IMG/VR virus record: IMGVR_UViG_2529292828_000011
DNA from: a virus
Taxonomy: Duplodnaviria; Heunggongvirae; Uroviricota; Caudoviricetes
DNA length: 44,960 bases
Reading direction: 5' to 3' (one strand)
Part shown: positions 33,850 to 36,764 of the stretch, piece by piece
How positions within the stretch are numbered: the first letter of the stretch is position 1
Layout of the letters: the number at the start of each line of letters is the position of its first letter
Notes under the pieces: model-generated
The model's input: the letters and a program-made list of their open reading frames with translations, nothing else
Databases searched by the model: none
Told to the model about the DNA's origin: nothing
Program-made: the position numbers and the translations under genes

Positions 33850-33878
33850 AGTGCCGCCATGAGCGAGAAGCGGACGTT
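33850..33878 (+). repeat. right copy of the imperfect direct repeat flanking the 449-aa gene
   Basis: agtgccgccatgagcgagaagcggacgtt; same 15-bp core as the left copy. Confidence 0.6.
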
Positions 33879-34394
33879 TCACTCATAAAGACTGGATTTA
33901 CTATTACATTAAACTCAACAAGACCTGGCCGCACCCACTCAGCGCGATCTTTGCGCGTCCGGCCCGTTTCCGGCACTATTCCCCGTCCGTATTGTGAAAA
34001 AACACCCATGCTAATTTCTGCGCATCTGAATGCCTGCGCACGCGGGTGAATGGCGGGCGGTTTCGGGCAAATGCGGGAATTAAGGGAGGATTTCCGGCAG
34101 TAAACGTGCGAAGTATATTGATAAATCTGTACGTGATTCACGGTTAACAGGTGCGCTGTTTAGTGGGTGAACGTGAGGCGTTAAGCAGCGAGCTTTGTGA
34201 GGCGATAGCGGTTTTTAGAGCCAGCTGCAGGCTCAGGAAAAAATATTCTGTTTTCGGGGCAGACACCGCAAATGACGACATTTTGCGGGGGTCTGCCCTA
34301 TCCTGCATCTCAGCAAAGCGGTGCCCTGTTCCCACCATGAGGTTTACCCGTCGCAGACCGCCGTAAGGTCGCGTTTTCCCATTCCTTTCCGTAC

Positions 34395-34735
34395 AACGGG
34401 TTTCCTTAAAGGTGGTGCGATCCAAGCTTGGCTATATGCACGAACTCCCCGATCCACCCGACTACCACAGCAATTTAGGTAACTGTTCTCTTGATCCCAA
34501 TCTTGACAGGCACGATAAATCGCCAATGGTGGTAACCATTGGTAACTGGTTTTATGGAGCGAGTAAACGCACGAAAGTACAAAGAATTCTTGAAGTGTCG
34601 GCCTAACTACAGATACACTGAAAAGACAGTTTTGGTTACTGCGCTCCGTTAAAGCCAGTTACCACGGTTCAAAAAGTTGGTAGCTCTAAGAACCTTGAAA
34701 AAACACCATTGGTAGCGGTGTTTTTTCTTATCTAG
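34395..34735. other. ColE1-type plasmid replication origin remnant (RNA II body and antisense RNA I region)
   Basis: Collinear similarity, judged by eye, to the pBR322/ColE1 ori region (e.g. gaattcttgaagtgtcggcctaactacagatacactgaaaagacag vs gagttcttgaagtggtggcctaactacggctacactagaaggacag); weaker similarity may extend left to about 34170. Confidence 0.6.
34626..34726 (+). ncRNA. RNA I-like antisense RNA of the ColE1-type origin (possibly a relic)
   Basis: Begins ACAGUUUUGGUUACUGCGCUCCG.. (ColE1 RNA I begins ACAGUAUUUGGUAUCUGCGCUCUG..) and ends in a ..GGUAGCGGUGUUUUUU terminator-like stem. Confidence 0.45.
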
Positions 34736-34778
34736 AGCTGGATACTATCACCACACATAAATTCATTAAGGAAAAAAG

Positions 34779-35249
34779 ATGTCTTCTGGAAGAAGGAAAA
34801 AAACCGAAACACAAAAGAGAAATAATCAAAGCCTTATAGATATTATATCTAGCATAAGTGAGTTTAATAATATAAAAGAATTAGAGAGAGAAGAAGGATT
34901 TGAATTGGTTGCATTTAAATTCAATGAAGTCAATTTAATACTTGAGAAGAGAGTAGCATCTAGAATAATAGTAATGAGACTGATGAACTCTTTTAACACC
35001 AACGCCATGAAAATAGGCAAAGATAAACAATCGCTACTGTCCATTGCTAATAATTTTAATAGAAAATCAATAGGAATAAAATCGACAATAATTGAAGAAG
35101 AACAAACACCATTGATTGTTTTCACAGTAGAAGAGATTGCTGTTGATGAAAAGATGCTCAACTTATCTGGTGATTCGTTAAGAATGCTAGCCGCAATTTT
35201 AGCTGGAGCACCGACATTATTTGAAAAATTAGGAATGGCCAAAGATTAA
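34779..35249 (+). CDS. hypothetical 156-aa basic protein, first gene of an AT-rich two-gene operon
   Basis: ATG with AAGGAAAAAAG upstream; Lys/Arg-rich N-terminus; no recognised domain; followed 9 nt later by the membrane-protein gene. Confidence 0.55.
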   Translation: MSSGRRKKTETQKRNNQSLIDIISSISEFNNIKELEREEGFELVAFKFNEVNLILEKRVASRIIVMRLMNSFNTNAMKIGKDKQSLLSIANNFNRKSIGIKSTIIEEEQTPLIVFTVEEIAVDEKMLNLSGDSLRMLAAILAGAPTLFEKLGMAKD

Positions 35250-35258
35250 GGGATTAGC

Positions 35259-35966
35259 GTGGGCACCGAGATTGAAAACAAACAATTAGAAATCAATACG
35301 CCATCTACTGTAAGTAGCTATACTGCTGAAAAAAATAGTAATTCATCAGTAACTGAGGTCGCTTCAAGTTTTGCTGCGATACTTATTATCGTTGTTATAG
35401 TAGTTTTAATCCTTTGCCTTTTGCAAAAGATGCATGTGGCGATAACACGTTTTTTCGAATTCATAATCTCTGTACCTTGGTATAAAAGAACAGTATTAAT
35501 AGTCATAGGAGCCATATCAACCTACCTAACAACAAAAGTACCAACTTCCTATTCATTCCTTCCTATAATAATAGGTTACATAACCACTTTTGCATTTAAT
35601 GAGTTTGCGTCAAAGAAAGATATAGAGAAAGCAAAAGCGCCTCTTGAAGAGGATATTATAGGAAAAGAAAAAACAATAGTTCTTTTTAGAAGAATAATTG
35701 AGGAAAAGAAAAACATATTCCAAGAAATAATAATTAATCGTATTAATGCTTGTGTGAGGATCACAGGAAAAAACGATAGTGACACCCTAAGAAAGTTGAA
35801 AATAAAGATATGCGAACTACAAGATATTATTTTTGCTGAAAAAACCTTTACCGAAACGCCAGATGAAGCTATTAGAAGATACGAGAATTCAGTATCTGGA
35901 GATGTTGACATGGCAGCACAGACTATGTTTGGTGATAGCAGAAGTGAGCAAGCGACTGCTGCCTAA
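35259..35966 (+). CDS. hypothetical 235-aa membrane protein (three predicted TM helices plus charged C-terminal domain)
   Basis: GTG start with AAGGGA upstream; hydrophobic segments ..FAAILIIVVIVVLILCLL.., ..TVLIVIGAISTYL.., ..FLPIIIGYITTFAF..; C-terminal Lys/Glu-rich region. Confidence 0.55.
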   Translation: MGTEIENKQLEINTPSTVSSYTAEKNSNSSVTEVASSFAAILIIVVIVVLILCLLQKMHVAITRFFEFIISVPWYKRTVLIVIGAISTYLTTKVPTSYSFLPIIIGYITTFAFNEFASKKDIEKAKAPLEEDIIGKEKTIVLFRRIIEEKKNIFQEIIINRINACVRITGKNDSDTLRKLKIKICELQDIIFAEKTFTETPDEAIRRYENSVSGDVDMAAQTMFGDSRSEQATAA

Positions 35967-36187
35967 AAAGATCAATCGGCTTATGTTCATACATTGTAGT
36001 AAAAAGCTTATTTGGTAAAAGCCAATCTACAATAAGAGCATAAGTATGCTAAATATCACTTCAAATGCTCTATGTCTGCGATATTTACCATAACATCTCT
36101 TTCCGGCACCACCTGAGAGGGCCTCAACGAGGTTCTGCTGCTTTTCCTTGTCCGTATCTCGAAAAAACTCCTCAGATGTTCCTGCAT

Positions 36188-36224
36188 GTTTGCCTGATTA
36201 TGCGGTGAGATCTTTTCTACGCGG
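36188..36224. other. second ColE1-ori-like segment (RNA II promoter-proximal region), separated from the main remnant by about 1.46 kb
   Basis: gtttgcctgattatgcggtgagatcttttctacgcgg resembles pBR322 gtttgcaagcagcagattacgcgcag...gatcttttctacgggg, which directly follows the RNA I terminator in ColE1-type plasmids. Confidence 0.45.
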
Positions 36225-36338
36225 ATTAGTGATTACAAATGTTTAAAACGTCCGTTACTGGCACAAAGCGGACAACCACGCTAGCTCAACCCTGTGCCAT
36301 GAAAATGTCAATTCATATCTGAACTAATGCTCTTTAAT

Positions 36339-36764
36339 CTAGTAACGTCTAAAATATCGAACATTTCCCTGATAAAATGCCAGTATGCGCTGCATAACTT
36401 CACTCCTCCGGCACTCGCTACAAATTATGTTTAGACGACTGTCGTAGCGACGTATTTCTCCGTCAGATAATGACCAGATAAGATCCGGATCAACCACAGC
36501 AGGTTTCTTCACCTTTGCCCTCGAGAGTTTTTTGCGGGCGTTTTGCCAGTCCTTACGCGCCTGTTCAGACGGGAATAACCCGTAGCCGGAGTTGTATACA
36601 TCACCACTGGCAACCAACTCTCTGGCAAGAACGCTCATCAGATATCTTGTCGCACCTGTTTTAGCTTCCAGTTGCCGTAACGTCTCACGACCGCTCTGGC
36701 GCACGAGTTCCACCACCTGCCCTTTAATTTTTTCCCGCTCTTCTTGTGTAAAAACTTTTGCCAC
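36339..36764 (-). CDS. hypothetical protein in the replication module
   Basis: 141-aa ORF downstream of the replication initiator; no family recognised. Confidence 0.4.
   Translation of the reverse strand: MAKVFTQEEREKIKGQVVELVRQSGRETLRQLEAKTGATRYLMSVLARELVASGDVYNSGYGLFPSEQARKDWQNARKKLSRAKVKKPAVVDPDLIWSLSDGEIRRYDSRLNIICSECRRSEVMQRILAFYQGNVRYFRRY

What the first reader, a model, noticed from the sequence alone, without database searches (positions are those of the whole stretch)
34170..36224. ColE1-type plasmid origin (RNA I/RNA II-like) embedded in the prophage and apparently split by the two-gene insertion
About 340 bp are collinear with the ColE1/pBR322 origin, including an RNA I-like region with terminator stem. 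The sequence that normally follows the RNA I terminator and carries the RNA II promoter reappears about 1.46 kb to the right (36188..36224). A plasmid-type replicon inside a lambdoid prophage is unusual and suggests a captured small plasmid, later disrupted by the cargo insertion.
Basis: partly seen in the sequence, partly recalled or inferred. Interest (0 to 1): 0.65.

Follow-up and report, generated by a model that had tools for sequence, protein, structure and literature searches.

The report
Origin-less ColE1 plasmid remnant in prophage
A small ColE1-type plasmid, carrying its own two cargo genes, became embedded in an E. coli Qin-like prophage and lost the stretch that holds the replication origin, so it is a dead plasmid relic and not a replicon split by an insertion.

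Summary
The plasmid signal is real. Rfam calls a full-length RNA I at 34627-34729 (68.4 bits, cut-off 47). Bases 34326-34775 are collinear with the RNA II promoter and the first ~405 nt of RNA II of ColE1-family plasmids.

The "split by a two-gene insertion" reading is wrong. Bases 34318-36141 are collinear (81%) with Pantoea plasmid pPA3.0, which has the same two ORFs at the same spacing from RNA I. The RNA II promoter sits in its normal place. Bases 36188-36224 belong to a cer-type (Xer) accessory region and share only an 11-mer with ColE1.

Plasmid-derived DNA spans about 33876-36249. It is circularly permuted at a cer-like Xer core. It also carries an internal junction at 34325/34326. That junction removes the last ~125-135 nt of RNA II, the conserved CCTATGGAAAA origin block and at least 370 bp downstream. 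Every autonomous relative I examined has this segment, and no plasmid among the 363 matching PLSDB records spans the junction.

The cargo ORFs are intact and under purifying selection (dN/dS 0.15-0.18). They recur in two other prophages.

Side finding: a 24-nt hairpin motif marks every cassette boundary in this prophage slot.

The element is ordinary in kind. Interest is low to moderate.

The parts
33852..33875 (+). 24-nt hairpin motif, copy 2 (TGCCGCCATGAGCGAGAAGCGGAC). It marks the right end of the neighbouring DUF4145 cassette and the left limit of the plasmid-derived DNA.
   Evidence: Pattern search finds 3 copies in the window against 0 expected. Homology of the DUF4145 module to the vat island ends exactly at 33875.
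33908..33935 (-). Left Xer-like core, degenerate or hybrid. Read on the - strand it is GGTGCGGCCAG-GTCTTG-TTGAGTTTAAT. The XerC arm matches pPA3.0 at 10 of 11. The XerD arm matches the consensus at only 8 of 11. An alternative XerD arm, TAATAGTAAAT, lies 12 nt further out (about 33896-33906).
   Evidence: Homology to small plasmids starts at 33933-33938.
33936..34139 (.). cer-type accessory region of the small-plasmid type.
   Evidence: 72-82% identical to the region next to the Xer core in pKpnB1_7, pMB7536_7, pL65-6 and pPA3.0.
34140..34325 (.). Conserved small-plasmid block containing a long hairpin (about 34257-34303). Function unknown. In autonomous plasmids it lies at least 370 bp downstream of the origin.
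   Evidence: About 85% identity to many small plasmids. Alignment. DNA fold z = -3.7.
34325..34326 (.). Internal deletion junction. The 3' ~125-135 nt of RNA II, the origin block and downstream DNA are missing: 505 bp relative to pMB7536_7, 527 bp relative to pKpnB1_7, about 740 bp relative to pPA3.0.
   Evidence: No plasmid among 363 matching PLSDB records spans the junction. The junction 24-mer occurs only in two metagenome contigs that are this same prophage.
34326..34735 (-). Truncated RNA II (preprimer): the first ~405 nt, ending right after the conserved GGAACAGG.
   Evidence: MAFFT alignment with pPA3.0, three other small plasmids and ColE1. Landmark distances.
34736..34775 (-). RNA II promoter homologue. 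The -10 is TAGTAT (34742-34747, with a TG extension). The -35 is TTAATG (34764-34769); pPA3.0 has TTGATG.
   Evidence: Collinear with the pPA3.0 and ColE1 promoters. Read from the sequence. Activity was not tested.
34590..34729 (+). RNA I gene with its promoter. The -35 is TTGAAG (34590-34595), the -10 is TACACT (34614-34619), and the RNA runs 34627-34729.
   Evidence: Rfam RF00106, 68.4 bits. Fold. Promoter hexamers align with those of ColE1.
34779..35249 (+). Cargo ORF1, 156 aa, no known family.
   Evidence: 80% amino-acid identity to the pPA3.0 ORF of the same length. dN/dS 0.18. No Pfam, PHROG, NCBIfam or PADLOC hit.
35259..35966 (+). Cargo ORF2, 235 aa, a helical membrane protein, no known family.
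   Evidence: 83% amino-acid identity to the pPA3.0 ORF. dN/dS 0.15-0.18. Only 11 clusters in 5.8 billion proteins and 7 representatives in 1.84 billion. AF2 model is all-helical, pLDDT 67.5.
36083..36110 (-). Right Xer core. Read on the - strand it is GGTGCCGGAAA-GAGATG-TTATGGTAAAT. The XerD arm is identical to that of ColE1 cer. The XerD arm and central region are identical to those of pPA3.0.
36111..36249 (.). cer-type accessory region of the large-plasmid type, with a ~20-bp deletion.
   Evidence: 75-79% identity to P. ananatis plas1 and an E. coli IncFII plasmid. 85% identity to the same unit in prophage locus L016.
36250..36273 (-). 24-nt hairpin motif, copy 3 (GTCCGCTTTGTGCCAGTAACGGAC on the - strand). 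It is terminator-like, lies downstream of the DUF977 gene, and marks the start of the phage backbone.
   Evidence: Backbone homology to more than 1000 E. coli genomes begins at 36238-36259.

Best explanation
Bases ~33876-36249 are the remnant of one small cryptic ColE1-family plasmid. Its closest sequenced relative is Pantoea agglomerans pPA3.0. It sits as a cassette in the variable slot between hokD and the replication module of a Qin-like prophage.

Read left to right on the + strand, the order of features is:
- a degenerate Xer core
- cer accessory sequences
- a conserved plasmid block
- a deletion junction
- truncated RNA II, which is encoded on the - strand
- RNA I
- ORF1 and ORF2
- an intact Xer core
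- a second, diverged cer accessory region

Shown: the copy is circularly permuted at the cer core. It lacks the origin, meaning the RNase H processing and DNA-start region plus the last ~130 nt of the RNA II primer.

Inferred from the established ColE1 mechanism: it cannot replicate by that mechanism. What probably still works is the RNA I gene (promoter, three stem-loops and terminator are intact), perhaps the RNA II promoter, and the two cargo genes, which are conserved as proteins.

Inferred history: the plasmid joined the phage, or an intermediate replicon, by recombination at its cer multimer-resolution site, most simply a XerC-side exchange with a cer-like site of the large-plasmid type. 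Loss of the origin then made a high-copy replicon tolerable in the chromosome. The cargo pair is what selection retains, so the remnant behaves like a moron (an accessory gene module carried by a phage).
For: RNA I: Rfam full-length hit and fold.

Collinearity with pPA3.0: 34318-36141 matches pPA3.0 2279..458 at 81%, including both ORFs. ORF identities are 80% and 83% at the same lengths. In pPA3.0 and contigs L018-L020 RNA I also ends about 50 nt before ORF1.

Circular permutation: in pKpnB1_7, pMB7536_7, pL65-6 and the K. grimontii plasmid, the window's right end (36083-36141) and left end (33935-34317) are contiguous across a core of the form GGTGCG..CAA-GAGATG-TTATGGTAAAT.

Loss of the origin:
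- All six autonomous plasmids have CCTATGGAAAA 121-132 nt after GGAACAGG. Contigs L019 and L020 have it too.
- Window homology stops at GGAACAGG.
- The origin motif is absent from the whole window, even allowing 2-3 mismatches.
- No PLSDB plasmid spans the junction.
- The junction is found only in this prophage.

Cargo under purifying selection: dN/dS 0.15-0.18.

Backbone decay in other copies: locus L016 has a mutated RNA I that falls below the Rfam threshold and an eroded Xer core. An IS1 deletion variant exists in strain 19SZHZ803Rt.

Rarity on chromosomes: 36 chromosomal against 1118 plasmid places for this RNA I/RNA II region in 5426 E. coli genomes, and 27 of the 36 are this element.

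Precedent: a 2.3-kb ColE1-type plasmid was found integrated in two Salmonella Pullorum chromosomes (PMC6449608).
Against: No experiment shows that the remnant cannot replicate. RNA II could in principle prime elsewhere.

The Xer route is only inferred. The left XerD arm matches at 8 of 11, and sites scoring at least 15 of 22 occur about 6 times by chance in shuffles of this window.

The two central regions differ (GAGATG against GTCTTG).

The right-hand unit of pair, core, accessory region and hairpin is contiguous at 85% in another prophage, L016. The right junction may therefore predate arrival in this phage.

The left block and the RNA II block could be two separate fragments and not one plasmid with a deletion.

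No autonomous plasmid closer than 81% is known.
Confidence: 0.8

Rival explanations
1. One reading: an otherwise complete ColE1-type origin whose RNA II promoter was separated from RNA I by insertion of a two-gene cargo. The promoter would now lie at 36188-36224, and removing the insert would restore a working replicon.
For: An 11-mer (ATCTTTTCTAC, 36210-36220) is shared with the ColE1 sequence upstream of the RNA II promoter. The cargo is much more AT-rich (about 30-35% GC) than the ori-like DNA (about 52%).
Against: The promoter homologue is in place at 34736-34775. The gene pair abuts RNA I in the same way in the autonomous plasmid pPA3.0 and in L018-L020. Bases 36188-36224 align collinearly with cer accessory regions of plasmids. 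The origin itself is missing on the other side.
Confidence: 0.03
2. The replicon is still functional. RNA II primes DNA synthesis at a non-canonical site in the conserved block 34140-34325, for example at the long hairpin. That would give the prophage a second, plasmid-type origin or a plasmid-like lifestyle after excision.
For: The RNA I gene and the RNA II promoter homologue look intact. The block next to the junction is conserved among plasmids and strongly structured. The region is 100% identical in 26 genomes.
Against: In every autonomous relative that block lies at least 370 bp beyond a canonical origin, and none of them lacks the origin. The C-rich/G-rich R-loop region and the CCTATGGAAAA block are gone. 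The related copy in L016 has decayed further. An IS1 variant has deleted most of it.
Confidence: 0.05
3. The material is plasmid-derived, but a plasmid circle did not enter by Xer recombination. The DNA arrived as one or two linear pieces by exchange at the 24-nt hairpin motifs that bound all cassettes in this slot, or by phage Red/RecET-type recombination at short homologies. It may have come from a cointegrate with a large plasmid. On this view the 34325/34326 junction joins two unrelated plasmid fragments.
For: Hairpin motif copies sit exactly at 33852-33875 and 36250-36273, and at the limits of the neighbouring DUF4145 cassette. The same arrangement is seen in L016, in the opposite orientation relative to the replication genes. 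It is also seen in another Qin-like prophage, L144. The right accessory region plus hairpin is a native unit of large plasmids.
Against: The order and orientation of the two blocks are those of a single plasmid opened at cer. The right core combines a small-plasmid XerD arm and central region with a XerC arm of the 'CCGG' type seen in the IncFII site. That combination is what a XerC-side exchange would produce.
Confidence: 0.3

Closest known systems
ColE1/pMB1-type theta replicons (RNA II preprimer, RNA I antisense inhibitor, RNase H and Pol I-dependent origin)
   Same: RNA I with three stem-loops and a terminator. Conserved RNA I promoter hexamers. The RNA II promoter position and the first ~405 nt of RNA II are collinear (71% to ColE1, 79-81% to closer plasmids).
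   Different: The last ~125-135 nt of RNA II, the conserved origin block and the downstream region are absent. There is no rop or mob. The copy is chromosomal and single-copy.
Pantoea agglomerans plasmid pPA3.0 (NZ_EU092237, 2901 bp), with metagenomic plasmid-like contigs L018-L020
   Same: Same gene order: RNA II/RNA I, ORF1, ORF2, then a cer-like core. 81% DNA identity over 1.8 kb. ORFs of identical length, 80% and 83% identical.
   Different: pPA3.0 is autonomous and has a complete origin at about 2397, plus about 740 bp that the window lacks. Its cer accessory region is of the small-plasmid type throughout.
cer/XerCD multimer-resolution sites of ColE1-family and large plasmids
   Same: 11-6-11 core with the XerD arm TTATGGTAAAT, identical to that of ColE1 cer. 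Flanking accessory sequence is homologous to that of relatives. The permutation point of the integrated copy lies at the core.
   Different: There are two directly repeated sites. The left one has a poor XerD arm and a different central region. The right one has a truncated accessory region of another type. No function was tested.
Chromosomally integrated small ColE1-type plasmids (for example pSPUS2 in Salmonella Pullorum, PMC6449608) and ColE1 cointegrates with large plasmids (PMC8683028)
   Same: A small ColE1-type plasmid found inside a larger replicon.
   Different: Here the host replicon is a prophage accessory-gene slot, the junction is at cer, and the origin has been lost.
Phage morons and prophage defence hotspots
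   Same: An independently transcribed accessory gene pair in a variable slot next to a PD-T7-3-like (DUF4145) gene. The slot content differs between related prophages.
   Different: This module still carries recognisable plasmid replication-control and resolution sequences.

Membership tests
ColE1-type replicon | Antisense RNA I of about 108 nt with three stem-loops and an intrinsic terminator | tested here: met
   Rfam RF00106, 68.4 bits against a cut-off of 47, model positions 1-102. The MFE fold has three stem-loops plus a U-run.
ColE1-type replicon | RNA II promoter just beyond the RNA I terminator, with the RNA II 5' region complementary to RNA I | tested here: met
   Collinear alignment with pPA3.0, four other plasmids and ColE1. 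The -35 is TTAATG where pPA3.0 has TTGATG. Promoter activity was not tested.
ColE1-type replicon | Origin: RNase H processing and DNA-start region (conserved ...GCCTATGGAAAA... block) about 500-555 nt downstream of the RNA II start | tested here: not met
   The block is present 502-538 nt from the RNA II landmark in six autonomous plasmids, and in L019 and L020. Window homology ends about 404 nt in, at 34326. The motif is absent from the whole window.
ColE1-type replicon | Autonomous, Pol I-dependent replication | not testable with these tools
   Needs cloning and transformation of polA+ and polA- hosts.
cer/Xer multimer-resolution site | XerC arm, 6-8 bp central region, XerD arm (11-6/8-11) | tested here: met
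   Right site, 36083-36110: GGTGCCGGAAA-GAGATG-TTATGGTAAAT, 17 of 22 to the dif-type consensus, the best match in the window. Its XerD arm is identical to that of ColE1 cer and of five relatives.
cer/Xer multimer-resolution site | A second site (left junction) competent for recombination | tested here: inconclusive
   33908-33935 scores 15 of 22. About 6 such sites are expected by chance per window. Only its position at the exact start of plasmid homology makes it notable.
cer/Xer multimer-resolution site | About 180 bp of accessory sequence binding ArgR and PepA | not testable with these tools
   Homology to the accessory regions of relatives is shown. Protein binding was not tested.
IMEX (integrative mobile elements exploiting Xer, such as CTXphi) | Integration at the chromosomal dif site | tested here: not met
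   The element lies inside a prophage, between hokD and the replication genes, not at dif.
Phage-plasmid | A phage genome carrying a functional plasmid replicon or partition system used for extrachromosomal maintenance | tested here: not met
   The prophage is integrated, with an integrase next to rspB. The plasmid-type replicon lacks its origin.

The most novel reading that the evidence does not exclude
The 24-nt hairpin motif GTCCGCTWTGWGCSAGRARCGGAC delimits the plasmid remnant, the neighbouring DUF4145 cassette and the cassettes of other Qin-like prophages. It also recurs at gene-block boundaries in Pantoea, Klebsiella and E. coli plasmids, and in Alphaproteobacteria, Nitrospiraceae and Acidobacteriota. 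The novel reading is that it is the recombination site of an undescribed cassette-exchange system, attC-like or REP/BIME-like, and not merely a shared terminator. The ColE1 remnant would then be one captured cassette. A lesser version of the same idea: the retained RNA I acts as a prophage-borne incompatibility determinant against pPA3.0-type plasmids.
Probability: 0.15. Interest if true: 0.75.

Novelty: new member of a known kind. Interest (0 to 1): 0.33.

Why it matters
The element shows how a prophage accessory-gene slot can recruit cargo from small multicopy plasmids. It also shows which parts of the plasmid survive. The cargo genes stay under purifying selection and the antisense RNA gene is still intact, while the origin, which would be hazardous in a chromosome, is gone.

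For annotation there is a practical warning. An Rfam RNA I hit or a 'Col' replicon call on a chromosome does not mean a working replicon is present.

The rare two-gene cargo has now been seen on small plasmids and in three prophage lineages, next to known or candidate defence genes. That makes it a reasonable candidate for a phage-exclusion function.

The hairpin motif found at every cassette boundary may deserve its own study.

Tried and rejected
- Split-origin model: rejected by collinearity with pPA3.0 and L018-L020 and by the alignment of 36188-36224 to cer accessory regions.
- Search for an autonomous plasmid with the 34325/34326 junction: none among 363 matching PLSDB records. None in one genome per GTDB species. 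Two metagenome hits were both this same prophage.
- Search for natural phages with this origin in INPHARED: most hits appear to be vector-like or mislabelled short records (my reading), and none covers more than 38% of the query.
- Search for an 'empty site' prophage carrying DUF4145 without the plasmid: not found. The only other DUF4145 context is the vat island.
- Function of the cargo: no Pfam, PHROG, NCBIfam or PADLOC hit. A profile search of 1.84 billion proteins gave 7 hits. The AF2 model of ORF2 has low confidence (pLDDT 67.5, pTM 0.32), so I ran no fold search.
- Rfam at a permissive threshold over 33850-36350: nothing but RNA I, so neither the conserved block nor the hairpins is a described RNA family.
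- Gene family consistently linked to the hairpin motif: none. Neighbours include LysR regulators, ABC-type binding proteins, RelBE and VapBC-like pairs and transporters.
- Literature: no paper prints the hairpin motif and none mentions pPA3.0. Tran et al. 2012, on Xer-site plasmid evolution, could not be read.
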